Shown here: one piece after another, positions 1 through 18,009 of the stretch
Numbering within the stretch: position 1 is the stretch's first letter
Layout of the letters: the number at the start of each line of letters is the position of its first letter
Assembly: GCA_007116965.1 (NCBI GenBank)
Contig: SKHJ01000053.1
Location: 1 to 36,158, forward strand
Length of the DNA: 36,158 nt
Direction: 5' to 3'
Source: Candidatus Kaiserbacteria bacterium
GTDB lineage: Bacteria; Patescibacteriota; Minisyncoccia; Phycocordibacterales; UBA918
Made by a program: the position numbers and the translations under genes
The notes under the pieces: model-generated
What the model was told of the DNA's origin: nothing
The model's input: only the letters and a program-made list of their open reading frames with translations
The model's database searches: none

Positions 1-81
1 CAACAGCAGCGACAACGCTCGCTCTCTGAGGCGGCCGCAGACGAGGCAACCTTACCCTGGGTACGGGTAACGATTGCGGTA

Positions 82-279
82 GTGATCGCCTTCTTGGCAC
101 TTGGTTTTATGTTGTATACGGCGCGCTCGATCTGGCTGTCTGGCATCAGCGCTATTGGTCGTAACCCACGGGCGCGAGGTTCGGTCTGGACGACCGCTAT
201 TTTCAGTACCGTCTTGGTAGTGTTAGTAGCCCTGGTCGCGCTTTTGGTCGCGCTGGGGGTGTTGGTCTTGCCGGTGTAG
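82..279 (+). CDS. atpE: F0 ATP synthase subunit c-like two-helix protein (may start upstream of the window)
   Basis: Hairpin of two hydrophobic helices directly upstream of atpF. The loop 'AIGRNPRARGS' matches the c-subunit polar loop (R-Q/N-P-E-A-R-G-S type). GTG 82 is the first in-window start, and the frame has no stop back to nt 1. Helix 2 has no Asp/Glu and helix 1 lacks the GxGxGxG motif, so the call is tentative. Confidence 0.55.
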   Translation: MIAFLALGFMLYTARSIWLSGISAIGRNPRARGSVWTTAIFSTVLVVLVALVALLVALGVLVLPV

Positions 280-333: not shown

Positions 334-1335
334 ATGCTGATCGAACTATCAATCGAGGTGCTTATCATCATCATTAGCCTTTTTGGGTTGCTGGTCGGTG
401 GGTTTGTGGTCCTGCAGCTCTATAACACACGGACCATTCGTCGACTTAGTTCATCGGTCTATGAGCGAATCCGCGCTGAAGCGGAACAGGAGGCACAAGC
501 CATCATTACCAATGCTCACGCTGAAGCCAGTACTATTCTCAGCCAAGCTAAGGATAATCGAGAGCAGTTACTACATATATACGAAGCGCAGTCGACCGAG
601 GCCCGAGAGATCGTTGCCGAAGCGCGGACCCAGGCGGCGACTATCCTGGCTGGCGCCGATGAGGATCGACAGCAGCTCGCTAGTGTCTACCACACGCAGA
701 TCGAACAAGCCAAGCAGATCGTGATGGAAGCAGAGGCGCAGGCGCGAGCCATTGTTGCTAGTGCCAAGGAGCAACGCACGCAGGTGGTTGATGACTACTC
801 AACACAGATCGGTAAGTTACAGAAGGTTTACGAGCAGCGTCTCGCCGAGCATATCGGCAGTTTGACCGAGCACATTGATACCCTACGGGCTTCGCAGACC
901 AAAGAGTTGACCGACGCCAGCGCGCAGTTGTTTGAGTCAATCATTCTCGAGCACGGTAAGATCCGCAAACGTTTCGACAAGGTCTTGAACTTGTTTGAAG
1001 AGACGCAGGGGACGATGGTGGGCGAAGCCAAGCAGGCGGTAGATTCAGTCAAAACGCGGCTGGACGAGACGGCGCAGACGCTCACGGAGCAGTTGCATAC
1101 CTACGACAACACCATCCGTGACACTATCTCAGAACATATCAAGCATACCTACGAGGTTATCGACGGGCAGATGGCGGAGTACCGTGAAGCCCGCGAAGCC
1201 ATTCTTGATCGTCATATTCAGCAGATCGTCGAAGACGTCACTCGCAAGGTGCTTAATAAGCAGTTGACCATTGTCGAGCACGCGGAGCTAGCGCGGGACG
1301 CGCTGGCGCAAGCCAAGAAAGATAACGTTATCTAA
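334..1335 (+). CDS. atpF: F0 ATP synthase subunit b, unusually long (333 aa)
   Basis: N-terminal TM helix (LIELSIEVLIIIISLFGLLVGGFVVL) followed by a long Ala/Glu/Gln-rich helical region. It sits between the c-like and delta genes. ATG 334 is preferred to GTG 313 because it opens directly onto the TM helix. Confidence 0.75.
   Translation: MLIELSIEVLIIIISLFGLLVGGFVVLQLYNTRTIRRLSSSVYERIRAEAEQEAQAIITNAHAEASTILSQAKDNREQLLHIYEAQSTEAREIVAEARTQAATILAGADEDRQQLASVYHTQIEQAKQIVMEAEAQARAIVASAKEQRTQVVDDYSTQIGKLQKVYEQRLAEHIGSLTEHIDTLRASQTKELTDASAQLFESIILEHGKIRKRFDKVLNLFEETQGTMVGEAKQAVDSVKTRLDETAQTLTEQLHTYDNTIRDTISEHIKHTYEVIDGQMAEYREAREAILDRHIQQIVEDVTRKVLNKQLTIVEHAELARDALAQAKKDNVI
484..807 (+). repeat. Three tandem 36-aa (108-nt) coiled-coil repeats inside atpF
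   Basis: The three units are EQEAQAIITNAHAEASTILSQAKDNREQLLHIYEAQ, STEAREIVAEARTQAATILAGADEDRQQLASVYHTQ and IEQAKQIVMEAEAQARAIVASAKEQRTQVVDDYSTQ. Conserved positions are A4, I7, A11, A15, I18, A22, R26, Q28, Y33 and Q36. Confidence 0.8.
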
Positions 1336-1347
1336 TTACACGTATTT

Positions 1348-1866
1348 ATGTTTTCGCTCAAGCGCAATATTCTCGAGTCAAGTACCACCGCCGACCAAGC
1401 TCACCATTTGTTGGCGTTGTGGCAGGAGGTGATGGAACAAGCATTGTACCGAGCTGATACAGCGCAGACATTGTTGCAACGTTGGCGTACGGCTGTCGCA
1501 GACATTGAAAATGAAGGAGATCGCGAGATATTGGAGCAGTGGGATACCGAGTGGCTGACAACCATTGTGCCTGAAGAGTTCCCAGACTTTGCGAGCGAGA
1601 TGCAGCACTGGCTACAACGGGTGCCGACGTTTGTGGTGTACGTACCGGTGGCATTAGATGCGGCAGGTGTCGAGCTACTCCACCGTTGGGTACAGCAAGA
1701 AATGGGCGAGGAATGGCTTTTGGACCTGCGGGTCAGCGCTAATACCCTGGGCGGTTGTGCGTTTATTGCCGATGAACATTGGCACGATTATTCATTGCAC
1801 GGACAGTTGCAGCGTCAACCAGAAGCGGTCCGTGAAGCATTGCGTTCGTATGAGACCAGCACTTGA
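1348..1866 (+). CDS. atpH: F1 ATP synthase subunit delta (OSCP)-like
   Basis: It sits between b and alpha. The C-terminal 'LGGCAFIADEHWHDYSLHGQLQR' fits the delta C-terminal signature (GG..v.v.d...D.S....L). The N-terminal half is not recognisably OSCP-like. Confidence 0.65.
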   Translation: MFSLKRNILESSTTADQAHHLLALWQEVMEQALYRADTAQTLLQRWRTAVADIENEGDREILEQWDTEWLTTIVPEEFPDFASEMQHWLQRVPTFVVYVPVALDAAGVELLHRWVQQEMGEEWLLDLRVSANTLGGCAFIADEHWHDYSLHGQLQRQPEAVREALRSYETST

Positions 1867-3316
1867 TCGTAGCACTGAGACGGGCGTGGTCGTTAAGGCC
1901 AAGCGGTACCTCTTGACCATCGCTGGCCTACCGTCAGCTCGGGTCAACGATATCTTGCTTGATGAGAAAGATCAGTATGCTATCGTGCGCGCCCTCAGCG
2001 ACGAGTATGTCTACGCCCTGGCGCTCACTAGTGTCTCACAACCAGGTGACCGCTACCGCTTCGCGGCTGATACCAAACTGTACTCAGGGGGCGACCATCT
2101 CTTTGGTCGCGTGATCGATACGTTGGGTCGGCCGGTGGATAATCGTGGCTCATTTCCACCCCCAAACGTTGCGTTCAAGCTAGAAGTAGAAGCGCCTGGG
2201 ATTGAGGTGCGCCGTCACATTCACGAACAACTGCAAACTGGTATCACTACCGTCGATACCTTGATACCAATCGCAAAAGGGCAACGCCAGCTGGTCTTTG
2301 GACCGATGCGGAGCGGTAAATCGACCTTCTTGACCCAGACGGTGCGGGAGCAGGCGGCGGCTGGTACGGTCTGTATCTACGCCGTCATCGGTAAGCCGAT
2401 CACTGGCTTACGTAAGATCACTGACAGTATTATCAAGGACGCGTCGCCTGAGAGTAAGGTGGTCGTGCTGGCGGCGGTTTCGGACGAACCAGCCTCGGTA
2501 ATCGCGCTGGCCCCGTCGGTGGCTTTTTTGTTGGCTGAGTATTTTCAAAGTCAAGGTGAGGATGTGTTGGTGGTTCTCGATGACCTTGACGCCCATGCCA
2601 AGTATTTACGTGAGATCGCCTTGCTCGAAGGTCGACTGCCCAGCACCGAGTCTTATCCTGGCGATATCTTCTACCAGCACGCTCACTTGATGGAGCGGTC
2701 GGGTCACTTCACTGACGAGATCGGTGGCGGATCTATCACGGCCTTGCCGGTCATTCAGACCGATCTCAAGAATTTCTCTGACCTCATTCCCACCAACGTG
2801 ATGGCCTGTACCGACGGACACCTTTCATTCTCCCCAACGATGCGGGCCCAAGGCGTGTATCCATCTATCAATATTCCAGAATCGGTGACCCGGGTCGGGC
2901 GACAAGCACAAGCACGACTCCAGAAGCAGGCGACCAGGCGGGTGTTGCGTCTCCTGGGGCAGTACCGGGCGCAACAAGAGTACGCGAAGTTTAGTTCTGA
3001 TCTGAACGAACAGGCACAACAGTTACTCCAGACTGGTGCTATTATCGAAACGCTCCTACAACAACCGCCATACGAAGGTATCGATCGGGCGGTACAGGTG
3101 ATAGCAATTGGCTTGGTCTTTTCCGGTTTCTTCGACACTATGGATGCACGGGTTGTACAAGAACGAAGAGCAGCCTTGTTGCAAGGACTGAGCGAGGATG
3201 ACGCCCTGAGTGCCTTACGGGAGACGGTAATGACCGAGCAATGGACTTGGGAGCAATTTGTTACCGAGCTCCAGAGTCACCACGACGCCATCAAGACCTA
3301 TGTCAGTGATCCGTGA
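1850..3316 (+). CDS. atpA: F1 ATP synthase subunit alpha (divergent)
   Basis: Colinear alpha motifs: GRVIDTLGRPVDNRG, P-loop GPMRSGKST, LVVLDDL, SYPGDIFYQHAHLMER, SITALPVIQT, IPTNVMACTDGHL, SVTRVG. The start is set at ATG 1850, giving a 17-nt overlap with atpH. The tracked ORF start at 1658 would overlap atpH by 209 nt and encodes Cys-rich nonsense. Confidence 0.9.
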   Translation: MRPALDRSTETGVVVKAKRYLLTIAGLPSARVNDILLDEKDQYAIVRALSDEYVYALALTSVSQPGDRYRFAADTKLYSGGDHLFGRVIDTLGRPVDNRGSFPPPNVAFKLEVEAPGIEVRRHIHEQLQTGITTVDTLIPIAKGQRQLVFGPMRSGKSTFLTQTVREQAAAGTVCIYAVIGKPITGLRKITDSIIKDASPESKVVVLAAVSDEPASVIALAPSVAFLLAEYFQSQGEDVLVVLDDLDAHAKYLREIALLEGRLPSTESYPGDIFYQHAHLMERSGHFTDEIGGGSITALPVIQTDLKNFSDLIPTNVMACTDGHLSFSPTMRAQGVYPSINIPESVTRVGRQAQARLQKQATRRVLRLLGQYRAQQEYAKFSSDLNEQAQQLLQTGAIIETLLQQPPYEGIDRAVQVIAIGLVFSGFFDTMDARVVQERRAALLQGLSEDDALSALRETVMTEQWTWEQFVTELQSHHDAIKTYVSDP

Positions 3317-4145
3317 GTTACAAGAACAGTTGCAACAGACTGAGACGACCAAGTTCGTCACGACGATGTTGCGTGATATCAGCGCCACTCGACTGCAAGC
3401 CATTCGGGCTGAGTTTGAGGCCAATACCGCGTATTATAGCGAACTCCACCAATTGATGAATCTGATCAAACGCTACGCGGCCGAGGCGGGGGTGTCACTC
3501 GAGCTGGGCGCAGGACCACGACGGGTCTACGTGGCCCTGACGGCCAATCGACGCTTCTATGGTCATCTCAATACCGATGTGATGAAGTTGTTGCACGAAC
3601 GGTTGGCGACTGAGACCGACGCGGCTGGGTACGTCATCGGCCAGACCGGTCAGCAGTACGTGGAAGCGGATGGGGCACAGTGGCCAGTATTACCCACCGT
3701 CGCGCTGTTCGCTAACGATATCCCCGAACCAGCTGAAGTTCGTTCAGTAATTGCGGCACTCCGCACGTATACTGAAGTGATGGTCATTCATCCGAGCTAT
3801 ATCAATTCCTTCAGACAAGAGGCAGTGGTGACTGATATCACCCACCAACCAGCTTTACATAGTAGTCATGAACGGCCGACGGTCGATTATCTATTCGAGC
3901 CAGACTTACCGGCCCTGCTACACTTCTTCCGTGAGCAAGTGCGTGCAGTTCTCTTTCAACGGGTGCTTTTGGAGACGCGGCTCGCTTTTACTGGCGCGCG
4001 TTTGATGAAGATGCAGCGGGCTCGGGAGCGGGCCGCCGAGTTGGTTCGTCAGGAGCGTCGTACCATTCATAAACAGATCAGTACGATTCAGAGTATGCGC
4101 CTACTGGAGACCTTTACTGGCTTTCATTCCGATCGCACGTTATGA
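3300..4145 (+). CDS. atpG: F1 ATP synthase subunit gamma
   Basis: It sits between alpha and beta. The N-terminal helix 'IRELQEQLQQTETTKFVTTMLRDISATRL' and C-terminal helix 'GARLMKMQRARERAAELV...IHKQISTIQSMRLLE' match the gamma pattern. ATG 3300 overlaps the atpA stop by 17 nt. Confidence 0.85.
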   Translation: MSVIRELQEQLQQTETTKFVTTMLRDISATRLQAIRAEFEANTAYYSELHQLMNLIKRYAAEAGVSLELGAGPRRVYVALTANRRFYGHLNTDVMKLLHERLATETDAAGYVIGQTGQQYVEADGAQWPVLPTVALFANDIPEPAEVRSVIAALRTYTEVMVIHPSYINSFRQEAVVTDITHQPALHSSHERPTVDYLFEPDLPALLHFFREQVRAVLFQRVLLETRLAFTGARLMKMQRARERAAELVRQERRTIHKQISTIQSMRLLETFTGFHSDRTL

Positions 4146-5566
4146 GCAAGCAGCACCAACACAAACCCAAGTCCCCGGAGACCACTGATCGTACGATTGG
4201 GCAGATTCGTGGCGTGTTGGGACAGATCGTGCATATCCACTGCACCGAATCGTACCGACCAGCGCTACGCGAACTCTTGAGTACGACGGAATATCCCGAG
4301 GTGCGTTTGGAAGCGTACGCATACGATGGTCCGCACACACTGTATTGCTTGTTGTTGACTGACGTTGATCAAATCGAGCGCGGTCTGCATGTGGTTTCAA
4401 CCGGTACTCAGATCACTATCCCGGTCGGGCAGGCGGCCTTGGGTCGGGTGATGGATCTCTACGGCGAGGCGATCGATGGAGGGTCACCACTTACCACCGA
4501 CGAGACGCGAACTGTGTACCGGAGTCAGACAATGACTCAGGGTATGCGCGTGGTGCGACCAGCCGAAGTGCTTGATACTGGCATCAAGGCCATTGATTTC
4601 TTTACACCCTTACTGCGGGGCGGCAAGATGGCCTTGGTCGGGGGAGCGGGAGTGGGTAAGACCACCTTGCAGGAGGAGATATTGCGCAATGTGGTCTACG
4701 GTGGTAGTGGCGTGTCGGTCTTTGCTGGGATCGGAGAGCGTATTCGAGAAGGACATGATCTGTGGTCGTCACTCAAGGAACATAATGTGCTTGATCGAAC
4801 GGCGCTTATCTTTGGACACATCAACAAGAACGCGGCGGTTCGTACGCTGACTGCGGCCTCAGCCGCAACCCTGGTCGAGTATTTTCGTGATGAGGCTAAA
4901 CAGGACGTCCTTTTCTTTGTTGATAATGTCTTTCGTTTCTTGCAGGCGGGGAGTGAGCTTTCGACGCTTTTGAGTGAATTGCCCTCGGAGTTCGGGTATC
5001 AGCCGACCTTGCAGTCAGAGATCGCGCAGTTTGAGAACCGACTGTATTCGACCGAGGACGCTTTCGTGACTTCGGTGCAGACGGTCTATGTACCAGCTGA
5101 TGAGTTTGGTAATCCGGCCGTGGCGGCCACTATGCCACATATGGACGCGGTGGTGGTACTCTCGCGGGAGATGACCCACGACGGCAGGTATCCGGCTATT
5201 GATCCCTTTACTTCGACCTCGAGCGCCCTCAACCCAGCGATGGTCGGCAGCGGACATTATCTGGCGGCCACTACCGCGGTCGAGATGTTGCAACAGTACA
5301 AACAGTTGGTGCGCATCGTCTCGATCGTGGGGGAGGAAGAGCTCTCTATCGAGAACCAGAAGCGATACTCGCGAGCGCAAAAATTACTCAATTATATGAC
5401 GCAGTCGTTTATCTCAACTGCGGTCGAAACGGGGCGGGAGGGGGTAAAGGTAACCCGAGCCACCGTGGTGGCTGATGTCCAGGCCATTTTGGGTGGGGTG
5501 GTCGATCGCGTGCCGGCTGATGAGTTCCTTTATATTAGCGATTTGAAGACGGCCGGACTCATATAG
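4142..5566 (+). CDS. atpD: F1 ATP synthase subunit beta
   Basis: Walker A GGAGVGKTT, then GIGERIREGHDLW, DVLFFVDNVFRF, FGYQPTL, TVYVPADEF and GRYPAIDP. ATGA overlap with atpG. Confidence 0.95.
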   Translation: MSKQHQHKPKSPETTDRTIGQIRGVLGQIVHIHCTESYRPALRELLSTTEYPEVRLEAYAYDGPHTLYCLLLTDVDQIERGLHVVSTGTQITIPVGQAALGRVMDLYGEAIDGGSPLTTDETRTVYRSQTMTQGMRVVRPAEVLDTGIKAIDFFTPLLRGGKMALVGGAGVGKTTLQEEILRNVVYGGSGVSVFAGIGERIREGHDLWSSLKEHNVLDRTALIFGHINKNAAVRTLTAASAATLVEYFRDEAKQDVLFFVDNVFRFLQAGSELSTLLSELPSEFGYQPTLQSEIAQFENRLYSTEDAFVTSVQTVYVPADEFGNPAVAATMPHMDAVVVLSREMTHDGRYPAIDPFTSTSSALNPAMVGSGHYLAATTAVEMLQQYKQLVRIVSIVGEEELSIENQKRYSRAQKLLNYMTQSFISTAVETGREGVKVTRATVVADVQAILGGVVDRVPADEFLYISDLKTAGLI

Positions 5567-5570
5567 GCAT

Positions 5571-5906
5571 ATGAATGAGCAGCGATTGACAATGAGTATC
5601 CAAGCCCCAGCCGGAGTGATCTGGGAAGGTGAGATACGGTCGCTCCGTTCACACAACCAAGAGGGTCCGTTTACTATTTTGCCCGACCACGCCAACTTTA
5701 TGACGCCACTTCATCAGGCCGAGCTCATCGTAACCTTTGCTGACGGAGTGGAACGAAGTTATACCTACGAAGAATCGGTCTTGTTCTTAGAAGATAACCA
5801 TATTCGCCTGTATGTGCACGAAGAACCAGGTTTGCGACAGACGGCGTCAGCGGAAGTTGCTACTGAGTCGGTAGTGGCCACCGATGAGACAGAAACAACG
5901 TCATAA
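5571..5906 (+). CDS. atpC: F1 ATP synthase subunit epsilon (short, 111 aa)
   Basis: Last gene of the operon. It carries the beta-sandwich motif 'QEGPFTILPDHANFMTPL'. The C-terminus is an acidic Ser/Thr tail rather than the usual two-helix hairpin. Confidence 0.8.
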   Translation: MNEQRLTMSIQAPAGVIWEGEIRSLRSHNQEGPFTILPDHANFMTPLHQAELIVTFADGVERSYTYEESVLFLEDNHIRLYVHEEPGLRQTASAEVATESVVATDETETTS

Positions 5907-5986
5907 ATACTGTGTAGACAAGCAATTTCGCCACGACGGTTATGCTACACTGAAGATGTCTGACCAGCCGTCAGGCGACTTTGAGT

Positions 5987-8900
5987 ATGCGCATACGTGG
6001 AGGACCGAAAAGCTGGAGTAAACGCCTAGAAAGCATAGTGCATATAACGGTGGCTGTTTTGACGGTGACGATGTTTGCCTATTCGGCGGGTGTGCGTGTT
6101 GACCTGGAACGTTTAAATGCTGTTACGCAGGTGGCACAGATCGGCAGTGCGCTGCCGACAGAGACCACCGGGCTGACACCTGAGAGTGAGTCACAGAGCC
6201 GCTGGTATGAACCGATTACGACACAAGTGCGGCACGTCTGGTCGGTAGTGGGAGAGACGTGGTACTTGGTACGGACCGGGGCGGTGTTTCAGTTGGCGCA
6301 GGTAGGAACGTCAGTGCCGGAGGGTGAGGCGGCCGCAGCTGCGCTGCGGCCGCCAGGTAGTTGGCCACTGCAGCCTGCCACCGATCCGTCGGCAGGCACT
6401 TTGATCGTCAACACGCCACTACTGGTTGATAACACCCTGACGGTCATTGGTACCAGCTCGTTGGCCACAACCACGCTGGGCGGTCCGTTGGGCGCACTCG
6501 ATGCTTCATTTACTAACGTCAGTATTGACGGCACGCTTACCATCGACACGCTGACGGCCGCGGCGGTGACGGCAGGCACGGTCGGTGCTACCGCTATTGA
6601 TACTGCCACACTAGGCGCGACAACGGTCGAAACAGCCGATTTGGGCGTTCTTAATCTCGCTACCATTGCCGAGCTGATCGTTGATAGCGCAGCTAGTCTT
6701 GGTTCGTTGCAAGTGTTGGGTGCGAGTGAGGTCACTACCTTATTGGCTACCGGTGTTTTGACGGCCCAGGGAGGTATGGTGACGCAAGGAGCTGATATCG
6801 ATGCTGGTGAAGGTGAGATCTTTGCTAGTAATATCGTTAATGAGATTGTCGCCGGGGAGAACGTGACTATCACCGGTACCCAGAATGTGCCGATCATCTC
6901 AGTCAGTGCGGATGATCTGGTTGGCGTACTCAGTCTAAATGGTCAAAGTGGTGACCTGGATCTGGTGGGCGGGGTAGATATCACTATTAGTGGTTTGACC
7001 ATCAGTAGTAATGCTACGTTGGCGACCGTACGGTCCCGTGGTGGTTGTGTCGACTGCATCACCGATGGCGATGTGCGGGCCGACCTGACCATCAGTGGCG
7101 GTACTATCAACGGCACCCCAATCGGCCTGACGACACCCAGTAGCGCGGCGTTTACTACCGTGGCTGTCGGTACCACTACCAGCTCAACAACCCTCACCGT
7201 TGGGGGTGGTTTAGAGGTGAGCGAACGGATCTTGATGACAGGTAGTGCCACCTCGACTTTCTTTGGTAGCGTTAATCTCGAGAGCGGTTGTTTTGCTATC
7301 GGTGGGGTGTGTATTGAAGGGGTAGAACCGTCGAGTTACGTGGGACTAAATGATACACCGGCCGGCTTGACCAACAACGCTCTGCAGTTTGCGAACGCGA
7401 GCGGTACCGCCTTGACCCAATCAGCCAACTTGGTCTTTGCTGACGGCCGGCTCGGAGTCGGAACAGCTACCCCAGAGCGAACACTGACCGTGGTAGGGGA
7501 TACCTTACTCTCCGGCGCGTTGCGCGTAGAGAGTAGTACCAGCTCGCAATTTGTGGGTGGTATCAACGTGACTGGTGGCTGCGTGTCGGTGGATGGGGTG
7601 TGTCTCGTCGGTGGAGTTAATCGTTTAGCTGATCTGACCGATGTGACCGTGGTGGCTACCAGTACTGGAGACATACTGCTGTTTGACGGATCAGACTGGA
7701 CCAATGTGCCGACCTCTAGCTTAGGCCTGGGTGATGGACGGTTTCGTGGGTTATCAGATACTCCCGACTTGTTTACGCCGAGTGCCATCTCCTTTGTCAA
7801 CGCTGGCGGTTCGGCTTTGACGCAGGACAGTGAGTTTATCTACAGCGGCGGTCAGCTCGGAGTAGGGACGAGTGACTTGCGGACAACGTTGACGGTCGGG
7901 GGTGATATCAGCGTGCTCGGTGCGGAGGCACTACGGTGGTACGACAGTGATAGCACCCACTACGTTGGCTTTCGAGCTCCAAGTACGTTGACAGGTTCGA
8001 CCGTTTGGACCTTGCCGGCGAGTGACGGTAGCGCCAACCAACTTCTGGTGACCGATGGCGCTGGTAATTTATTCTTTGATGACCTTAGTGCGCTGGGTGG
8101 TGGCGCTAACCGCTATGTTGAATTGACCGACACCCCGGGCGCCTTTGTTGGCGCCGGAGTGATCCCGTTTGTCAACGCGACGAGCTCTGCCTTGACCCAA
8201 GCGAGCACCTTTGTCTTTCGAGAAGGGCGGCTGGGGGTGGGTGTAAATGACCCCGGACAGACTTTGACTGTACAGGGAGATATACGCTTCCAACCCAATG
8301 CCCAGGACATCGGAATGGTGTACTCGACCAGTGGCAATCGGTTTGGTTTTGGTACACCCAGCATCAGCGACAATCGTATTGCGTTACGGGGCTCACTAAC
8401 CCAATTCGGAGGAGTACAGGGTGATCCTTACGAGCTTGTTCCGCGTGGATCGGTGACAACTTTACCTGCCCGAGTAAACGACATTGTAGTGGTCGGTAAT
8501 CTGGCCTACGCGGTGACCGATTCGGCCAACAATGACTTCCATATCATTGACGTCACTAATCCAGATAATCCGGTCGAGATCGGCCAACTTGACCTACCTT
8601 TGAACGCTAACGGTCGGGCCGTGACTATCCTTGGCCAGTATGCGTACGTGGTGTCGACTTCACAGGGTGATGATTTTCATGTCATCAATGTTAGTGATCC
8701 TACGGACCCAGAGATCGTGAACTCACTACCGTTACCGACGATACTACCAACATCTGTTAATGATGTAGCAATTAAGGGCAACTACGCCTATGTGGTCGCC
8801 AACCGCACGACTGATGCAGCCGATAGACAATTCTTTGTTATTGATATTACCGATCCGACGCAGCCATCGTTCGTAAACGAGCTATTTCTGGCTGACTCTG

Positions 8901-10372
8901 GTACTGGTATCGATATTGCGGGTAACTTTGCGTACATCACCTCAGCGGGGAGCGGTGACGATCTGCAGGTCTTTGATATCAGTGACCCGGTCAACCCAGT
9001 ACTACTTGATGGGATCAATTTACCTACCCAGGCCAATGATGTAGTAGTGCGGGGTCGGTACGCGTATGTTGTCACTAATTCAGCGGGCAACGATTTTCAT
9101 GTCATCGATATCCTTGACCCATTTGCCATGGACGAAGTTGGTTCATTGCCGCTCCCAACCAGCGCTACCGCTCTGGTGGTCAACGGTCGCTATGCCTATG
9201 TGACCACAGAAGCAGCCGGTCAAGATATCCACGTCATTGACATATTCGACCCTAGTCAACCTCGACTGATCGGCGGGTTTGACCTACAGTCCGGTGACGG
9301 GTTAGCGATAGCGGTCAGTGGTCGCTATGCCTACGTCGGTGGAAGTGGTACCAACAACCGCTTTAGGATATTTGATGTCTCAGGGGCTGAATTGCAATCT
9401 GCAGTTGTTCACTCACTGCTCGGCGGTTCTTTGGATGTCAGTAGTAATGTCGTTGTGGCGGGACGGGTCAGCGCTGGATTGGGGGTAAGTGCGGGAGTAG
9501 AGGGGTTGCGGACCGATGGACAACTGATAGTGCAGGGCACGGGTGACTCGTTCCTGGCGGGCCGTCTTGGTATCGGTACCAGCACGCCGAGTAGCGAGCT
9601 GACTGTGGCCGGTACGATTCGCTCTACTAGTATTGCTGGTTGTGATGGTCTCGATACGGATATGTTCGGTAATATCATTTGCTATTCGCCATCAGATGAG
9701 CGGCTCAAAACCGGCGTACAGAACATTGAAGGAGCCCTAGACTCTGTCTTGCAACTACAAGGCGTCTCGTTCTATTGGCTGGACGAGGAACGGTTTGGGC
9801 CACAGCGTGAACTTGGTTTTATTGCGCAAGAGGTGGCCGAGATATTCCCCGAGGCGGTACGTGAACGAGAGGAATATTGGTCGCTCAACCCTGCTCGTTT
9901 AGTGGCAGTGGTGGTAGAAGCCATCAAAGAGTTGTGGGAGGTAGTGCGAGGCAACCAGGATAAGCTAGCTGAGTTGGAGACACGGGTCGCAGAACTCGAG
10001 GCCCAACAGTCCGCAGCTATTAGTAACACGCCGGGCACTGAAGGGGGTACGACCATTGTGGGAGAAAATCTCTCGACCACAGTAGAAGACGAGGAACCCG
10101 AAACCGCTACCACCACCGCTACGACCAGTGAAATGTCCGCTGCAACGCTGGTGGAGGATGGTGTAGATACAGCCACCAGCTCAACAGCTGCCAGTACGGA
10201 TGTGACCGATACCGACGAGTCAGTGGAGTCGCCATCATCAGCTACCACCACGAGTGCTACGTTGCCAGAGAATGGTATCGAAGCTGTGCCGACGCCAGAG
10301 GTGGAGTCTGATACAGACCAGGGTAATGAGGATAGTGCGATTGCGGATGAACTGACCGAGGACGAAGAATAG
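5987..10372 (+). CDS. Giant N-terminally anchored surface protein: fibre/beta-helix repeats + 7 LVIVD repeats + peptidase S74 intramolecular-chaperone domain + acidic S/T tail
   Basis: 1461 aa from ATG 5987 (TTG 5981 is also possible). Single N-terminal TM (IVHITVAVLTVTMFAYSAGV). Thr/Gly/Val/Ala-rich repetitive body, with the domain blocks listed separately below. Confidence 0.85.
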   Translation: MRIRGGPKSWSKRLESIVHITVAVLTVTMFAYSAGVRVDLERLNAVTQVAQIGSALPTETTGLTPESESQSRWYEPITTQVRHVWSVVGETWYLVRTGAVFQLAQVGTSVPEGEAAAAALRPPGSWPLQPATDPSAGTLIVNTPLLVDNTLTVIGTSSLATTTLGGPLGALDASFTNVSIDGTLTIDTLTAAAVTAGTVGATAIDTATLGATTVETADLGVLNLATIAELIVDSAASLGSLQVLGASEVTTLLATGVLTAQGGMVTQGADIDAGEGEIFASNIVNEIVAGENVTITGTQNVPIISVSADDLVGVLSLNGQSGDLDLVGGVDITISGLTISSNATLATVRSRGGCVDCITDGDVRADLTISGGTINGTPIGLTTPSSAAFTTVAVGTTTSSTTLTVGGGLEVSERILMTGSATSTFFGSVNLESGCFAIGGVCIEGVEPSSYVGLNDTPAGLTNNALQFANASGTALTQSANLVFADGRLGVGTATPERTLTVVGDTLLSGALRVESSTSSQFVGGINVTGGCVSVDGVCLVGGVNRLADLTDVTVVATSTGDILLFDGSDWTNVPTSSLGLGDGRFRGLSDTPDLFTPSAISFVNAGGSALTQDSEFIYSGGQLGVGTSDLRTTLTVGGDISVLGAEALRWYDSDSTHYVGFRAPSTLTGSTVWTLPASDGSANQLLVTDGAGNLFFDDLSALGGGANRYVELTDTPGAFVGAGVIPFVNATSSALTQASTFVFREGRLGVGVNDPGQTLTVQGDIRFQPNAQDIGMVYSTSGNRFGFGTPSISDNRIALRGSLTQFGGVQGDPYELVPRGSVTTLPARVNDIVVVGNLAYAVTDSANNDFHIIDVTNPDNPVEIGQLDLPLNANGRAVTILGQYAYVVSTSQGDDFHVINVSDPTDPEIVNSLPLPTILPTSVNDVAIKGNYAYVVANRTTDAADRQFFVIDITDPTQPSFVNELFLADSGTGIDIAGNFAYITSAGSGDDLQVFDISDPVNPVLLDGINLPTQANDVVVRGRYAYVVTNSAGNDFHVIDILDPFAMDEVGSLPLPTSATALVVNGRYAYVTTEAAGQDIHVIDIFDPSQPRLIGGFDLQSGDGLAIAVSGRYAYVGGSGTNNRFRIFDVSGAELQSAVVHSLLGGSLDVSSNVVVAGRVSAGLGVSAGVEGLRTDGQLIVQGTGDSFLAGRLGIGTSTPSSELTVAGTIRSTSIAGCDGLDTDMFGNIICYSPSDERLKTGVQNIEGALDSVLQLQGVSFYWLDEERFGPQRELGFIAQEVAEIFPEAVREREEYWSLNPARLVAVVVEAIKELWEVVRGNQDKLAELETRVAELEAQQSAAISNTPGTEGGTTIVGENLSTTVEDEEPETATTTATTSEMSAATLVEDGVDTATSSTAASTDVTDTDESVESPSSATTTSATLPENGIEAVPTPEVESDTDQGNEDSAIADELTEDEE
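7337..8281 (+). repeat. Three copies of a ~55-aa tail-fibre-like unit spaced ~125-135 aa apart
   Basis: The units are YVGLNDTPAGL..ALQFANASGTALTQSANLVFADGRLGVGTATPERTLTVVGD, FRGLSDTPDLF..AISFVNAGGSALTQDSEFIYSGGQLGVGTSDLRTTLTVGGD and YVELTDTPGAF..VIPFVNATSSALTQASTFVFREGRLGVGVNDPGQTLTVQGD. A fourth partial copy (GRLGIGTSTPSSELTVAG) lies near 9550-9620. Confidence 0.8.
8468..9397 (+). repeat. Seven tandem ~44-aa LVIVD-type repeats (predicted 7-bladed beta-propeller)
   Basis: Repeat cores are GNLAYAVTDSANNDFHIIDVTNPDNP, GQYAYVVSTSQGDDFHVINVSDPTDP, GNYAYVVAN..RQFFVIDITDPTQP, GNFAYITSAGSGDDLQVFDISDPVNP, GRYAYVVTNSAGNDFHVIDILDP, GRYAYVTTEAAGQDIHVIDIFDPSQP and GRYAYVGGSGTNNRFRIFDVSG. Confidence 0.85.
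9692..10009 (+). other. Peptidase S74 / 'chaperone of endosialidase' self-cleaving C-terminal domain
   Basis: SDERLKTGVQNIEGALDSVLQLQGVSFYWLDEE...GFIAQEVAEIFPEAV...WSLNPARLVAVVVEAIKELWEVV, followed by the coiled coil LAELETRVAELEAQ. This matches the S-D-x-R-x-K ... G.iAQEv..v.P..V ... L...l..aiqeL pattern of phage tailspike and tail-fibre intramolecular chaperones. Confidence 0.8.
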
Positions 10373-10495: not shown

Positions 10496-11182
10496 ATGCA
10501 GTTCACCAAAGAACACCCAGTTGTTTCTGCCTTGATATCGACCATCTTGATCACTCCGCTGCTCTTTTTCATGTATTTTGCCTTTGAACCACGAGTCGTG
10601 TTGAGTCAATCTGAAGAGGAGACCTTCATTATCGAACAAATAATTGGTGAAGAGATCTCCTTCCAAGTACCTCCTGGTGATGTGGAGATGGACGGTACAC
10701 TAGGTGGTTTGTTGGGAGGAATCAGTAATGGTTCAACTACCTTCGCGGTAGCTACCAACGCACCGCTAGGTTACCAAGTGGAGATCGCGTTCACCCAAGC
10801 AGATGCGATGGTTAACAACGCCTCTTCCACGTACTTTATTCCCAACCTCAATCCTCGCGAATTTGAGTTCTCAACCTCGACTGTCGCTGGTAGCGCTGGC
10901 TTTGCGTACACGGTGACTGGTGGTACGCATGTTGATAACTTTTTCGCTGATGATGGTGATAACTGTGGTACTGGTTCAAACTACTCAGCTGACCGCTGTT
11001 GGTTTATGGAAGAAACCGCTACCACGCCACGGATAATCGTAGACTCAAATTCACCAACTGATGGTCAGGGTGATGAGACGATTCTTTACTTCAGAGTGGC
11101 AGTAGACCAGAACCCATCACTGCAGCTACCGACTGGCACCTATACTGCCACTGCTACCCTTACTGCTGCTCCGCAGACCTAA
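10496..11182 (+). CDS. Secreted/anchored beta-rich surface protein, WxL-like but Trp-less (paralogue A)
   Basis: N-terminal hydrophobic signal or anchor. Colinear motifs are shared with 12422-13189: GGISNGSTTFAVATNAPLGYQVEI, FEFSTS, DDGDNCGTGSNYSADRCW, and the C-terminal PTGTYTATATLTAAP. Confidence 0.6.
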   Translation: MQFTKEHPVVSALISTILITPLLFFMYFAFEPRVVLSQSEEETFIIEQIIGEEISFQVPPGDVEMDGTLGGLLGGISNGSTTFAVATNAPLGYQVEIAFTQADAMVNNASSTYFIPNLNPREFEFSTSTVAGSAGFAYTVTGGTHVDNFFADDGDNCGTGSNYSADRCWFMEETATTPRIIVDSNSPTDGQGDETILYFRVAVDQNPSLQLPTGTYTATATLTAAPQT

Positions 11183-11195
11183 TTTTGCGGCTTTC

Positions 11196-11223
11196 TTGCA
11201 AATGTTACGACAAGAGTTACAAT
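11196..11223 (+). promoter_or_regulatory. Candidate sigma70-type promoter TTGCAA-16 nt-TACAAT for the 11329-14806 operon
   Basis: TTGCAA (11196-11201) and TACAAT (11218-11223) lie in the 146-nt gap upstream of the 11329 gene. Confidence 0.35.
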
Positions 11224-11328
11224 AGGTCAGTAAGCTGGCCAGCAGGTTGTTAGTTGGGTGTTGTTTAGATAGAGGCCGCGATGTGTATGATTTTTATTCC
11301 TATATCCGTAAAGGTACGCGCGCAAGGC

Positions 11329-12399
11329 ATGACATCATTACGTTTGCTGACCTTGTTGTCACTCTTGCTGGTGGCAACGATACCTGTTGGGGTGCTGGCC
11401 GAGACAGGGGCAGCACCAGAAGACCTGGCGGTGCTTGATGAGGAAGTATTAGTGGTTGCAGATGATGATACAGCAGCAGTGACTGCTGACACCTCTACTC
11501 CGGAAGATAGTTATCGCAGAGAACCGCTTGTTAGTCGGGAGGTGTTTGGTGATTTTGTCATCGGTCCGGGTCGGTTTGACGTCGAGTTAGCTCCAGGGCA
11601 GTCGCGTACTGTCGAGATGACCATAGCTAATCGGATGGGGGAGGGTAAGATTTTTAGTTTCGAGACCGAGGATATGGTGGGTGCTCGTGACCCAAACCGC
11701 ACGATCGACCTACTGGGTGACCAGGAAGGGCCGTACAGCCTGCGCGACTTCATTTCTGTCTCGCACCAGACTTTTTTTCTAGAGCACGGACAGCGTGCTC
11801 GGGTACCCGTCACTATCACGTTACCTCCAGATGTGGAGCCGGGTGGACGCTACGGTTCATTGTTGGTGTCGGTTACCTCTCGTCCGAGCCAACAGGTAGC
11901 AGCTGGCACCCGTTCGGGATCGGCTATTGTCAGTCGTATTGGAGCGCTTTTCTTTGTCACGACACCTGGTGATATTGTGCGCGATAGCTCACTAACCAGC
12001 TTTAGTACACGTAATCGGCAACGGTTCTTCACAGCCGGCCCAGTTACCTTTGATATCACACAGGAGAACTTCGGGTCGGTACACACTAATCCGTACGGTC
12101 GGATGGTCATCACCAATATCTTGGGTGAAGAGGTGGGTCGGGTAAACCTGGACCCCTGGTACGTAATGCCGCAAGCAATCCGGACCCGTGAACTCACCTG
12201 GGACCGGGAGTTCTTGTTCGGGCGATATACCGCTACTGCCCAGATCAACCGAGGCTACGATGATATCGTCGACGAAAAGGCTTTCGTCTTCTACGTCGTA
12301 CCGTGGCGTCTAGGAGTGATAGTATTTGGGATTCTTTTCCTCGGCTTCTTGCTTCTCCGCTTGTTCTTCAGCCGCTTCGAACTCAAACGGAAATCGTAG
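11329..12399 (+). CDS. Surface protein with signal peptide, two beta-sandwich-like modules and a C-terminal TM anchor (DUF916/DUF3324-like architecture)
   Basis: The start is moved to ATG 11329, which opens on the signal peptide MTSLRLLTLLSLLLVATIPVGVLA. Module 1 is 'FDVELAPGQSRTVEMTIANRMGEGKIFSFE ... RARVPVTITLPPDVEPGGRYGSLLV'. Module 2 is 'VTFDITQENFGSVHTNPYGRMVITNILGEEVGRVNLDPWYVMPQAIRTRELTW..FGRYTATAQI'. The C-terminal TM is LGVIVFGILFLGFLLLRLFF, followed by a KRK tail. Confidence 0.6.
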   Translation: MTSLRLLTLLSLLLVATIPVGVLAETGAAPEDLAVLDEEVLVVADDDTAAVTADTSTPEDSYRREPLVSREVFGDFVIGPGRFDVELAPGQSRTVEMTIANRMGEGKIFSFETEDMVGARDPNRTIDLLGDQEGPYSLRDFISVSHQTFFLEHGQRARVPVTITLPPDVEPGGRYGSLLVSVTSRPSQQVAAGTRSGSAIVSRIGALFFVTTPGDIVRDSSLTSFSTRNRQRFFTAGPVTFDITQENFGSVHTNPYGRMVITNILGEEVGRVNLDPWYVMPQAIRTRELTWDREFLFGRYTATAQINRGYDDIVDEKAFVFYVVPWRLGVIVFGILFLGFLLLRLFFSRFELKRKS

Positions 12400-12421
12400 C
12401 TAAATCAACTATGTCAGCACA

Positions 12422-13189
12422 ATGTCACGTTCTATCTATATCACAACTGTTTGCGCGCTGATCTTCACTCCGCTGGTGTTGTGGGGAATTGGGGTAGTGG
12501 GGGCGCAGGTGATGAGTGGTACCACTTACCAGATCGAAAGTGATAGTATCAATTTTGGTGGTGGCTTTAGCGCCTCGGATAACTATACGCTCAAGGATAC
12601 ATTGGGTGAGATTGCGACCGGCGAGTCAGAGAGCGAATCATTTCAGTTGCGTGCGGGCTACCGTCAGTTACTAGCAGTTGCCATCGCCATCTCAGCACCG
12701 ACTCCAGTGACTATGGATCCGCCCATCCCAGGTGTGACCGGTGGTTTTTCGACGGGGTCGACCAGTGTTACCGTGACCACTGATAACCCGGCTGGCTACG
12801 AGCTCGTGATCCGAGCTGAGAGCGAGCCAGCTATGCAAGGACCTAACGGAGCCAGTATCGGTGATTACGAACAGATTGGTGATGCAGATTTTACTTTTGC
12901 TACCAGTAGTACAATGGCGCACTTTGGCTTCTCGGTGGTAGGCGAAGACGCGGCGGCTCGTTTTCGTCATGACGGGTCTAATACCTGTGGTAGCGGAACC
13001 ACCAATACACCGCTGCGCTGTTGGGTTGGATTGCGCAGTTCTCCAGAGTTGGTAGCCCAGCGCACCACCAGTAACCATCCAGAAGGGAGGGAGACTACTT
13101 TCAACTTCCAAGTTGGTATTGGTGATGCGGTATCGCAGCCGCCAGGTGTGTACATAGCTACTACTACCGTGACTGCCTTGCCATTATAA
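12422..13189 (+). CDS. Secreted beta-rich surface protein, WxL-like but Trp-less (paralogue B)
   Basis: Signal peptide MSRSIYITTVCALIFTPLVLWGIGVVGAQV. Motifs are GGFSTGSTSVTVTTDNPAGYELVI, FTFATSS, HDGSNTCGSGTTNTPLRCW, and the C-terminal PPGVYIATTTVTALPL. These are colinear with 10496-11182. Confidence 0.6.
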   Translation: MSRSIYITTVCALIFTPLVLWGIGVVGAQVMSGTTYQIESDSINFGGGFSASDNYTLKDTLGEIATGESESESFQLRAGYRQLLAVAIAISAPTPVTMDPPIPGVTGGFSTGSTSVTVTTDNPAGYELVIRAESEPAMQGPNGASIGDYEQIGDADFTFATSSTMAHFGFSVVGEDAAARFRHDGSNTCGSGTTNTPLRCWVGLRSSPELVAQRTTSNHPEGRETTFNFQVGIGDAVSQPPGVYIATTTVTALPL

Positions 13190-13198
13190 TCCAAGATA

Positions 13199-15892: not shown

Positions 15893-15897
15893 TACGT

Positions 15898-16392: not shown

Positions 16393-16398
16393 AATCGT

Positions 16399-17073: not shown

Positions 17074-17087
17074 GGCAAGTATCGAGC

Positions 17088-17096
17088 TGGTATACT
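17088..17096 (+). promoter_or_regulatory. Extended -10 box TGGTATACT, 10 nt before the transketolase ATG
   Basis: TGGTATACT, then ACGTATTAGT, then ATG 17107. No SD. Confidence 0.5.
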
Positions 17097-17106
17097 ACGT
17101 ATTAGT

Positions 17107-18000: not shown

Positions 18001-18009
18001 TATTCACGT

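What the first reader, a model, noticed from the sequence alone, without database searches (positions are those of the whole stretch)
82..279. c-subunit-like protein with no ion-binding carboxylate
The ORF sits at the c-subunit position, directly upstream of atpF. It has the characteristic loop (AIGRNPRARGS; compare ARQPEARGS in Na+/H+ c subunits). In characterised c subunits the essential Asp/Glu lies 18 residues after the loop Pro (E. coli D61, I. tartaricus E65). Here that residue is Val. The whole second helix (VWTTAIFSTVLVVLVALVALLVALGVLVLPV) contains no acidic residue, and helix 1 has neither an acidic residue nor the GxGxGxG packing motif. A canonical rotary proton or sodium path cannot work with this protein. 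Possible explanations are that a second, canonical c gene lies elsewhere, that the enzyme is uncoupled or repurposed, or that the ORF is not a true c subunit.
Basis: partly seen in the sequence, partly recalled or inferred. Interest (0 to 1): 0.65.

Follow-up and report, generated by a model that had tools for sequence, protein, structure and literature searches.

The report
Carboxylate-free c-like anchor of F1-like ATPase
The small ORF is the cut-off tail of a larger surface-exposed membrane protein that takes the place of the proton-carrying c subunit in a widespread, apparently undescribed ATP-driven F-type motor of ultra-small (Patescibacteria/CPR) bacteria, a motor with no gene for a proton channel beside it.

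Summary
The c-like loop AIGRNPRARGS is present, Val sits where the essential Glu/Asp should be, and neither helix has an acidic residue or a GxGxGxG motif. However, the ORF is not a 65-aa gene. Its frame is open to base 1 of the window, and the window is a whole contig. Orthologues show a protein of about 250-270 aa, here called X. X has a cleavable signal peptide, an extracytoplasmic beta-domain with the fold of phage capsid decoration proteins, a linker helix, and this C-terminal two-helix hairpin.

X defines a family with no Pfam or NCBIfam model: 87 close members and 354 clusters at 50% identity. The loop GRNP(R)A is nearly invariant, and no member examined has the carboxylate. In all 13 related loci fetched, X is the first gene of the cluster X, b-like, delta, alpha, gamma, beta, epsilon. 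No subunit a or canonical c gene lies nearby. A giant LVIVD/Peptidase_S74 surface protein follows wherever downstream sequence exists. The beta catalytic motifs are intact, and the delta-like protein has an OSCP fold.

The best reading is an ATP-hydrolysing F-type derivative that is not coupled to ions and acts on the cell surface. It is analogous to the mycoplasma F1-like X0 ATPases but composed differently. I could not test whether a canonical Fo exists elsewhere in these genomes.

The parts
1..279 (+). 3' end (last 92 codons plus stop) of the gene for protein X. It is cut by the contig end. The signal peptide and the extracytoplasmic decoration-protein-like domain lie outside the window.
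   Evidence: The frame is open from base 1. It aligns with the C-terminal third of 250-270-aa orthologues. The window is a whole contig.
58..150 (+). Transmembrane helix 1 of the hairpin (about W20-S50). It runs from outside to cytoplasm and has no acidic residue and no GxGxGxG motif.
   Evidence: The AF2 model of orthologue P0001 has a helix at 188-222. Family alignment.
157..177 (+). Cytoplasmic loop G-R-N-P-R-A-R. It is nearly invariant in the family and matches the R-(N/Q)-P loop of F-type c subunits.
   Evidence: G, R, N, P and A are invariant in A2 and A5. 130/131 wider-family representatives have GRNP. Canonical Patescibacteria-type c subunits read AIGRNPEAAGK.
184..276 (+). Transmembrane helix 2 and the conserved C-terminal LVLPV. 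It contains Val (nt 220-222) at the position of the ion-binding Glu/Asp, and Ser (nt 205-207) at the family's conserved Asn/Ser position.
   Evidence: hhalign register. Residue counts at +18 and +13.
334..1335 (+). b-like peripheral-stalk candidate, with an N-terminal TM helix and a long helical region. It contains three tandem ~37-aa repeats that make it about 72 aa longer than most orthologues.
   Evidence: Position and architecture. Only weak hits to b, b', V-type E/G and AhaH. No significant hhalign match to canonical b. Repeats.
1348..1866 (+). delta/OSCP-like subunit.
   Evidence: The AF2 model has pLDDT 94, and the top 43 Foldseek PDB hits are all delta/OSCP. hhalign to canonical delta gives probability 86% over the C-terminal domain. 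PDB profile hits are to OSCP.
1850..3316 (+). alpha-like subunit. Its P-loop variant is GPMRSGKS and the Arg finger SVTRVG is kept. It lacks the canonical N-terminal delta-binding helix.
   Evidence: Pfam ATP-synt_ab and ATP-synt_ab_C. NCBIfam atpA scores 323 bits, below the cut-off of 484. Motifs. N-terminus comparison.
3300..4145 (+). gamma-like subunit.
   Evidence: Pfam ATP-synt E 2e-24. The start is inferred from orthologues.
4142..5566 (+). beta-like catalytic subunit with Walker A, catalytic Glu, Walker B and adenine-binding motifs intact.
   Evidence: NCBIfam atpD scores 433 bits, below the cut-off of 463. Identity is 71-78% within the clade but only 38-46% to the other beta subunits recovered.
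5571..5906 (+). epsilon-like subunit with only the N-terminal beta-sandwich. The inhibitory C-terminal helices are absent.
   Evidence: Pfam ATP-synt_DE_N over residues 7-79. Orthologues are 88-97 aa.
5981..10372 (+). Giant surface protein (LVIVD beta-propeller repeats, Peptidase_S74 intramolecular chaperone, acidic tail). It lies immediately downstream of epsilon wherever that region was fetched, and is a candidate partner of the ATPase.
   Evidence: Pfam. Synteny in L002, L004, L005, L006, L082, L083, L085 and L089. A large uncharacterised ORF sits in the same position in L090.

Best explanation
The ORF is the C-terminal membrane hairpin of protein X, the first gene of a seven-gene F-type-derived ATPase cluster (X, b-like, delta, alpha, gamma, beta, epsilon) found in a clade labelled Patescibacteria.

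Mature X has this topology: a beta-domain with the phage decoration-protein fold on the outside of the membrane, a linker helix, TM1, the cytoplasmic loop GRNPRAR, TM2, and a C-terminus outside. This is the topology of a c subunit, and the loop is the one that contacts gamma/epsilon in F-ATPases.

X has no ion-binding carboxylate and the cluster has no subunit a. The complex therefore cannot translocate H+/Na+ by the canonical mechanism.

I propose that X oligomerises and docks the gamma/epsilon foot of a catalytically active F1. ATP hydrolysis would then be transmitted as torque or conformational change through the membrane to the extracellular domains, and from there to cell-surface partners such as the giant LVIVD/S74 protein encoded next door.

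Shown:
- truncation of the ORF by the contig end
- domain architecture of X
- family-wide absence of the carboxylate
- invariance of the loop
- conserved gene order
- no a or c genes within 185 kb of related loci
- intact beta catalytic motifs
- delta fold of the delta-like protein

Inferred:
- ring formation by X
- contact between X and gamma/epsilon
- operation in the hydrolysis direction
- action on surface proteins
For: - Truncation and full-length orthologues.
- Family of 87 proteins of 240-315 aa with no Pfam or NCBIfam model.
- Wider family of 354 clusters at 50% identity, with the hairpin always C-terminal in the 150 listed.
- GRNP(R)A loop invariant, no D/E at +18 in 0/87 and 0/130, and 119/130 with no D/E anywhere in helix 2.
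- Hairpin versus canonical c profiles: hhalign 87%, E 4e-6, well above the reversed and shuffled controls. The only PDB sequence hits are c subunits. Foldseek places the hairpin on F-type c subunits with TM 0.8 and rmsd 1.6-2 A.
- Reciprocally, the best tblastn hits of canonical c subunits in X-type loci land on the X hairpins, and 15 canonical a subunits hit nothing.
- AF2 model of X with pLDDT 91.6. The ectodomain matches capsid decoration/cement proteins at E 3e-6, and scores 26.9 bits against PF23982 (cut-off 27) in P0152.
- Same gene order in L002-L006 and L082-L090, with variable or non-atp genes upstream (gatB, obg, secA, giant surface protein).
- Beta catalytic motifs intact.
- Delta fold.
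- Giant S74 protein downstream wherever sequence exists.
Against: - Homology of the hairpin to c rests mainly on the short loop motif. Pfam ATP-synt_C matches only 2 of 39 hairpins at E<=1, and no free-standing c subunit appears in the top 150 of the hairpin-profile search.
- A helical hairpin is a generic fold, so the Foldseek matches (E 0.2-1.5) prove little.
- No oligomer or complex was modelled.
- The alpha subunit lacks the N-terminal helix that normally binds delta, so the stator may differ from what I assume.
- The b-like protein has no detectable homology to b.
- Whole genomes were not scanned, so a canonical a/c pair elsewhere is not excluded.
- The link to the giant surface protein is synteny only.
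Confidence: 0.6

Rival explanations
1. This is a normal ion-coupled F1Fo. Canonical a and c subunits are encoded elsewhere in the genome, as in split atp operons, and X is an extra accessory or assembly subunit that merely sits where atpE usually is.
For: Whole genomes could not be scanned. Split atp operons exist in other bacteria (my own knowledge). CPR surveys report that a complete F-type ATPase is the norm (PMC9166423).
Against: - The cluster keeps b-like and delta genes together with F1, but in 13 loci totalling 185 kb there is no a or c homologue.
- Alpha, beta, gamma and epsilon all fall below the NCBIfam equivalog cut-offs. Beta is only 38-46% identical to the other beta subunits recovered.
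- X carries the c-type loop, invariant across the family, which suggests it occupies the c position on gamma/epsilon.
- There are no AtpI/AtpZ/AtpR matches.
Confidence: 0.12
2. The hairpin is an ordinary two-helix membrane anchor unrelated to subunit c. X is a surface protein that is co-transcribed with the ATPase but not part of it. The F1-like head would then attach to the membrane only through the b-like protein.
For: Pfam ATP-synt_C is sub-threshold and is hit by only 2/39 members, while spurious TM families are hit as often. The hairpin profile retrieves no canonical c subunit among its 150 best hits.
Against: - The GRNPRA loop is nearly invariant in more than 200 diverse sequences. That is hard to explain for a passive anchor, and it is the same motif as in Patescibacteria-type c subunits.
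- hhalign scores far above the reversed and shuffled controls.
- X is strictly the first gene of the cluster in every locus, even at 63% beta identity and in the HTH-fused variants.
Confidence: 0.15
3. The enzyme is still ion-coupled, but through an unconventional site. One possibility is the conserved Asn/Ser 13 residues after the loop Pro. The single-TM proteins of the cluster would then provide the stator half-channels.
For: Asn occupies +13 in 113/130 wider-family members, and a few have Glu or Asp at +12 or +13. Upstream HTH+TM proteins are conserved and are sometimes fused to X.
Against: No known rotary ATPase works without a carboxylate and without the a-subunit Arg (established knowledge). 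The window's own protein has Ser at +13. No polytopic membrane protein is present in the cluster.
Confidence: 0.05
4. This is a decaying operon. The c gene has lost its carboxylate and the cluster is a non-functional remnant.
For: All subunits are strongly diverged from canonical models.
Against: The architecture is conserved across 354 clusters at 50% identity. Catalytic motifs are intact in every locus. Reading frames are intact, and AF2 confidence from the family alignments is very high.
Confidence: 0.02

Closest known systems
Mycoplasma F1-like X0 ATPases (Type 2 G1-ATPase of M. mobile gliding; Type 3 associated with MIB-MIP), PMC3369863 and PMC12994834
   Same: - A seven-gene cluster with diverged alpha, beta, gamma and epsilon, and no subunit a or canonical c.
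[quoted passage not shown]
- The cluster lies next to genes for large surface proteins.
- The alpha subunit lacks the N-terminal helix.
- The proposed role is to transmit ATP-driven force across the membrane to surface proteins.
   Different: - The cluster here keeps a delta/OSCP subunit and a b-like stalk protein.
- It has no 12-TM 'Protein 1' and no 'Protein 2'.
- X is small (~26 kDa versus 85-127 kDa), has a decoration-protein-like ectodomain, and has a loop identical in type to the c-subunit loop.
- NCBIfam MSC_0618/0619 cut-offs are not reached (338 versus 570 bits; 210 versus 520 bits).
- The phylum is different (Patescibacteria).
- Coexistence with a canonical operon was not shown here.
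F-type ATP synthase subunit c (Pfam PF00137)
   Same: - A two-helix hairpin with N- and C-termini outside.
- A cytoplasmic loop [AS][IV]GR[NQ]P.
- First position before the stalk genes.
- Profile-profile similarity (87%) and a structural match (TM 0.8).
   Different: - No carboxylate.
- No Gly-rich packing motif.
- Not a free 70-90-aa proteolipid, but the C-terminal third of a secreted-domain protein.
- Below the Pfam threshold.
- No adjacent subunit a.
Rotor subunits with carboxylate-free hairpins (Acetobacterium woodii c1, V/A-type duplicated c subunits); recalled from memory, not tested here
   Same: They show that a c-type hairpin lacking the ion-binding Glu can be tolerated inside a rotor ring.
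   Different: In those enzymes the defective hairpin is fused to, or mixed with, carboxylate-bearing hairpins, and a subunit a is present. Here no carboxylate-bearing partner is encoded in the cluster.
Phage capsid decoration/cement proteins (lambda gpD-like; TW1, Pam3, BB1; Pfam PF23982 XM1_gp53)
   Same: The ectodomain of full-length X has this fold (Foldseek E 3e-6 to 1e-3). P0152 scores 26.9 bits against a cut-off of 27.
   Different: It sits in a chromosomal cellular context, fused to a signal peptide and a membrane hairpin. There is no PHROG match. The domain lies outside the window.
N-type ATPase (alternate F1Fo; atpDCQRBEFAG)
   Same: A second, diverged F-type ATPase lineage.
   Different: N-ATPases keep a and a carboxylate-bearing c, and add AtpQ/AtpR. 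NCBIfam alt_F1F0 cut-offs are far from met (396 versus 752 bits; 311 versus 750 bits).

Membership tests
F-type ATP synthase subunit c (PF00137) | Helical hairpin with a cytoplasmic R-(Q/N)-P loop | tested here: met
   GRNP at nt 157-168. The AF2 hairpin has a c-like fold. hhalign aligns the loops.
F-type ATP synthase subunit c (PF00137) | Essential Asp/Glu in the middle of helix 2 (+18 from the loop Pro) | tested here: not met
   Val in the window (nt 220-222). 0/87 and 0/130 family members have D/E there.
F-type ATP synthase subunit c (PF00137) | Gly-rich GxGxGxG packing motif in helix 1 | tested here: not met
   Only one conserved Gly, in the context (x)GALGF.
F-type ATP synthase subunit c (PF00137) | Score above the curated Pfam/NCBIfam threshold | tested here: not met
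   16.9-17.6 bits against 24. NCBIfam 16.7 against 122.
F-type ATP synthase subunit c (PF00137) | Free-standing proteolipid encoded next to subunit a | tested here: not met
   It is the C-terminal part of a ~260-aa protein. There is no a homologue in 185 kb of related loci.
F-type ATP synthase subunit c (PF00137) | Forms an oligomeric ring that binds gamma/epsilon | not testable with these tools
   Only monomer prediction is available.
Mycoplasma F1-like X0 ATPase (Type 2/3) | Diverged alpha/beta/gamma/epsilon set without a and canonical c | tested here: met
Mycoplasma F1-like X0 ATPase (Type 2/3) | [quoted passage not shown] | tested here: met
   X architecture, compared with Protein 5, MMCAP2_0577 and MMOB1650. 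Sequence relatedness to those proteins was not tested.
Mycoplasma F1-like X0 ATPase (Type 2/3) | 12-TM Protein 1 and cytosolic Protein 2; no b or delta | tested here: not met
   No polytopic protein is in the cluster. A delta/OSCP fold is present.
Mycoplasma F1-like X0 ATPase (Type 2/3) | alpha/beta reach the NCBIfam MSC_0618/MSC_0619 or glide_MMOB1660/1670 cut-offs | tested here: not met
   338 versus 570 bits, 210 versus 520, 339 versus 850, and 288 versus 600.
Mycoplasma F1-like X0 ATPase (Type 2/3) | Coexists with a canonical Type 1 F1Fo operon in the same genome | not testable with these tools
AtpI / AtpZ / AtpR accessory proteins | Match to PF03899, PF09527 or PF12966 | tested here: not met
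   These families do not appear in Pfam scans at E<=1.
N-type (alternate) F1Fo ATPase | alt_F1F0 alpha/beta/epsilon equivalog scores; a, c, AtpQ and AtpR in the operon | tested here: not met
   396 versus 752 bits and 311 versus 750 bits. The gene content differs.
delta/OSCP (for the gene at 1348-1866) | Two-domain OSCP fold | tested here: met
   AF2 pLDDT 94. Foldseek ranks 1-43 are all delta/OSCP. Pfam OSCP is sub-threshold (15.7 versus 22.3 bits).
Subunit b (for the gene at 334-1335) | Sequence homology to ATP-synt_B | tested here: inconclusive
   hhalign probability is 1%. There are only weak coiled-coil-type hits to b, b' and V-type E/G. Architecture and position fit.

The most novel reading that the evidence does not exclude
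X forms a c-ring-like rotor whose outer face carries a crown of decoration-protein-like domains. The F1 head, held by a delta/b-like stator, spins or cranks this ring by ATP hydrolysis. That would make it a rotary motor whose output is mechanical work on the cell surface rather than ion transport. The target could be the neighbouring giant LVIVD/S74 fibre protein, with a role in attachment, motility or host interaction of episymbiotic Patescibacteria. It would have been evolved directly from an ATP synthase by loss of the ion path.
Probability: 0.2. Interest if true: 0.95.

Novelty: new variant of a known kind. Interest (0 to 1): 0.75.

Why it matters
Rotary ATPases are defined by coupling between ATP and an ion gradient through the c-ring carboxylate and subunit a. 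This lineage is conserved and widespread: at least 354 clusters at 50% identity, in organisms labelled Patescibacteria. It keeps F1, delta and a stalk, but replaces the c subunit with a carboxylate-free hairpin fused to an extracellular domain, and it has no a subunit in the operon.

Three consequences follow.
- Automated metabolic reconstructions that count alpha, beta, gamma and epsilon as 'F-type ATPase present' may wrongly credit these organisms with an enzyme that generates or consumes a proton-motive force.
- It gives a second, independent example, beside mycoplasmas, of an ATP synthase turned into a force generator directed at the surface. This one has a much clearer evolutionary link to subunit c, which makes the transition experimentally tractable.
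- It points to a candidate machine for the poorly understood cell-surface biology of CPR episymbionts.

Tried and rejected
- Searching the 92-aa fragment alone in the 5.8-billion-protein set found nothing. The family became visible only after full-length orthologues were recovered via the beta subunit.
- I looked for other contigs of the same organism that extend upstream. The delta-like protein gave only the window itself and a 1-kb contig. The b-like protein is not on record under two candidate starts. An exact 36-mer scan of JGI metagenomes found nothing.
- AtpI, AtpZ, AtpR and T4SS-pilin explanations were rejected. There are no hits, or only single hits at E 0.14.
- A phage origin was rejected. 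There is no PHROG hit, and the context is chromosomal (secA, obg, gatB, glycolysis and ribosomal genes).
- TRF on the b-like gene found no DNA-level repeat. The repeats are visible only at protein level.
I rebuilt the alignment from database hits.
- Five literature searches found no paper describing this cluster.
- I considered using the last protein search to look for a canonical a subunit on the same 592-kb contig. I judged the power too low and used the search for the delta fold instead.

Full report
**1. The observation**

The ORF at 82..279 exists with the sequence quoted.
- Its loop is AIGRNPRARGS (nt 151-183).
- The residue 18 positions after the loop Pro is Val (GTG, nt 220-222).
- There is no acidic residue after the loop and no GxGxGxG motif in helix 1.

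However, the reading frame has no stop codon back to base 1 of the window. The window is itself a whole 36,158-bp contig. The only long contig on record carrying its delta-like protein falls in the 20-50 kb class, and that protein's cluster lists a longest contig of 36,158. The 65-aa ORF is therefore an artefact of the contig end. Only the last 92 codons of the gene are present.

**2. The full-length protein**

A genome scan with the beta subunit recovered five close relatives, L002-L006, at 71-78% identity. All are MAGs labelled Patescibacteria, Saccharibacteria or Kaiserbacteria. Every other beta subunit in that scan is only 38-46% identical.

In L002-L005 the orthologous gene encodes about 250-270 aa. 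Its parts, in order, are:
- a signal peptide ending in an AXA-type site
- a conserved beta-rich domain of about 120 aa
- an Ala/Gln/Glu-rich helix
- the two-helix hairpin seen in the window

A profile search found 87 such proteins of 240-315 aa. All are 'hypothetical' and essentially without Pfam domains. NCBIfam has no model for them either.

AlphaFold2 with 79 family sequences gave a confident model, with pLDDT 91.6. Foldseek against the PDB gave two kinds of match:
- The outer domain matches phage capsid decoration/cement proteins (Pam3, BB1, TW1, lambda gpD; E from 3e-6).
- The hairpin matches F-type c subunits (TM about 0.8, rmsd 1.6-2 A, weak E-values because the match is short).

In longer family members the outer domain reaches 26.9 bits on Pfam XM1_gp53_minor_capsid, against a cut-off of 27.

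**3. Is the hairpin c-like?**

Single-sequence evidence is weak.
- Pfam ATP-synt_C scores 16.9-17.6 bits against a gathering score of 24, and hits only 2 of 39 family hairpins.
- All five PDB sequence hits are c subunits, but at E 0.13-0.9.

Profile evidence is better.
- I compared the hairpin alignment with 18 canonical c subunits taken from the canonical operons in L007-L081. hhalign gave probability 87%, E 4e-6 and score 32.9. The reversed template scored 10.4, and 30 column-shuffled templates scored at most 18.4.
- The register places the essential Glu on the window's Val.
- The canonical c subunits of the Patescibacteria-type operons read EAIGRNPEAAGK. That is almost the same loop as the window's SAIGRNPRARGS.
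- Conversely, when canonical c subunits are searched against 185 kb of X-type loci, their best hits fall on the X hairpins.

I conclude that the hairpin is probably derived from subunit c, but it fails the family's defining tests: no carboxylate, no Gly motif, sub-threshold score, and not a free-standing proteolipid.

**4. Family-wide loss of the ion site**

In the 87 close members, GRNP(R/K)A is nearly invariant, and none has D/E at +18. Only two have an acidic residue inside helix 2, a Glu at +12.

A hairpin-profile search of 1.84 billion representatives found 354 clusters at E<=1e-3. In the 150 listed, the hairpin lies at the C-terminus of the protein: most are 230-585 aa, and the few shorter entries appear to be fragments. 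No canonical c subunit is recognisable among them.

Among 131 further representatives:
- 130 have GRNP
- none has D/E at +18
- 119 have no acidic residue anywhere in helix 2
- 113 have Asn at +13, where the window has Ser

**5. Genomic context**

In every locus examined, X is followed by a b-like protein, a delta-like protein, alpha, gamma, beta and epsilon. These loci are the window, L002-L006 and L082-L090.

Upstream genes vary. They include gatB, obg and secA; a giant fn3/LamG protein; a transposase; and toxin-antitoxin genes. They are never atpB or atpE. Fifteen canonical a subunits find nothing in the 185 kb of X-type loci (best E 0.07).

Two small ORFs with an HTH_17-like domain and one TM helix often precede X. 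In 504-585-aa family members that module is fused to the N-terminus of X.

Downstream of epsilon there is a giant surface protein in L002, L004, L005, L006, L082, L083, L085 and L089. L090 has a large uncharacterised ORF in the same position. In the window this protein lies at 5981-10372 and carries LVIVD repeats and a Peptidase_S74 domain. In L002 and L004 it is followed by the same four further ORFs.

**6. The rest of the enzyme**

- Beta keeps its catalytic motifs: Walker A (GGAGVGKT), the catalytic GERxREG, Walker B/DNVFRF, and YVPAD.
- Alpha keeps its Arg finger but has a variant P-loop.
- All F1 subunits score below the NCBIfam equivalog cut-offs. Beta scores 433 bits against 463, and alpha 323 against 484. 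They also miss the N-ATPase and mycoplasma F1-like models.
- The delta-like protein is a genuine delta/OSCP. AF2 gives pLDDT 94, Foldseek ranks 1-43 are all delta/OSCP, and hhalign to canonical delta gives 86%.
- The b-like protein has the right architecture (N-terminal TM helix plus a long helix) but no detectable homology to b.
- In the window the b-like protein carries three tandem ~37-aa repeats.
- Alpha lacks the N-terminal helix that normally binds delta.
- Epsilon lacks the C-terminal inhibitory helices.

**7. Mechanism**

Shown:
- There is no carboxylate and no subunit a in the cluster.
- F1 has intact catalytic motifs.
- A delta subunit is present.
- X has c-like topology, an invariant c-type loop and an extracytoplasmic domain.
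- The cluster is conserved next to surface-protein genes.

Inferred: X oligomerises under gamma/epsilon, the enzyme works as an ATPase, and its output is mechanical action on the cell surface rather than ion transport.

The rivals are set out with their tests in the rival explanations: a split operon with canonical a/c elsewhere, X as an unrelated anchor, an unconventional ion site, and operon decay. The first could not be excluded because whole genomes could not be scanned.

**8. Comparison with known systems**

The nearest described systems are the mycoplasma F1-like X0 ATPases. [quoted passage not shown] They are linked to gliding legs or to the MIB-MIP antibody-cleavage system (PMC3369863, PMC12994834).

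The present cluster shares the logic and the 'signal peptide plus two C-terminal TM helices' component. It differs in three ways: it keeps delta and a b-like stalk, it lacks the 12-TM protein, and its hairpin is recognisably c-like. It does not reach the NCBIfam models for the mycoplasma proteins.

Five full-text searches found no description of such a cluster in Patescibacteria. [quoted passage not shown]

**9. Verdict**

It is the truncated tail of the membrane subunit of a conserved F-type-derived ATPase that is probably not coupled to ions. I rate it a new variant of a known kind (the F1-like X0 concept), with interest 0.75. The open points are the oligomeric state of X, the partner of the motor, and whether a canonical Fo coexists in these genomes.

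Noticed in passing
window 5981-10372: Giant 1463-aa ORF with an N-terminal TM/signal anchor, LVIVD/beta-propeller repeats, a Peptidase_S74 intramolecular-chaperone domain and an acidic low-complexity tail. An orthologue follows the epsilon gene in every related locus with downstream sequence.
   Followed up: partly
window 10496-14806: Four ORFs of 228, 372, 255 and 535 aa. The 372-aa ORF has a weak WxLIP_PGBD hit and the 535-aa ORF has an fn3 domain. They are syntenic with L002 and L004 directly after the giant protein, so the conserved block may extend about 14 kb beyond the ATPase.
   Followed up: partly
window 334-1335 (aa ~45-162): The b-like protein contains three tandem ~37-aa repeats. 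Pairwise scores are 63-78, against a shuffle maximum of 41-46. This makes it 333 aa, where most orthologues are 259-269 aa, so the stalk varies in length. No repeat is detectable at DNA level.
   Followed up: yes
window 1850-1900; L002, L004, L082, L085, L089 alpha N-termini: X-type alpha subunits have only 8-14 residues before the beta-barrel, against 27-30 in canonical alphas. The canonical delta-binding N-terminal helix is therefore missing, although a full delta/OSCP is encoded.
   Followed up: partly
window 5571-5906: Epsilon consists of the N-terminal beta-sandwich only, plus an acidic tail here. Orthologues are 88-97 aa. The C-terminal helices that inhibit hydrolysis in bacterial epsilon are absent.
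   Followed up: partly
window 205-207; family position +13 from the loop Pro: There is a conserved polar residue in helix 2: Asn in 113/130 wider-family representatives and Ser in the window. Its role is unknown.
   Followed up: partly
L002 3999-4814 and 4863-5348; L004 2507-3556; L089 8639-9962; P0138, P0141, P0152, P0155, P0172: ORFs with an HTH_17-like domain and one TM helix lie just upstream of X. The same module is fused to the N-terminus of X in 504-585-aa family members. This is a gene-fusion hint that they belong to the complex.
   Followed up: partly
L085 6205-6576: A 23S_rRNA_IVP (PF05635) gene is inserted between the beta and epsilon genes of the most divergent cluster examined.
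   Followed up: no
window 14858-18999: A run of GAPDH, RpiB, ribulose-phosphate epimerase and a transketolase split into two genes (17107-18000 and 18010-18999). This is a typical reduced Patescibacteria carbon core.
   Followed up: no
L082 1-9754: A protein of more than 4286 aa with fn3 and Laminin_G_3 domains lies immediately upstream of X on the 592-kb contig. The ATPase cluster there is flanked on both sides by giant surface proteins.
   Followed up: no
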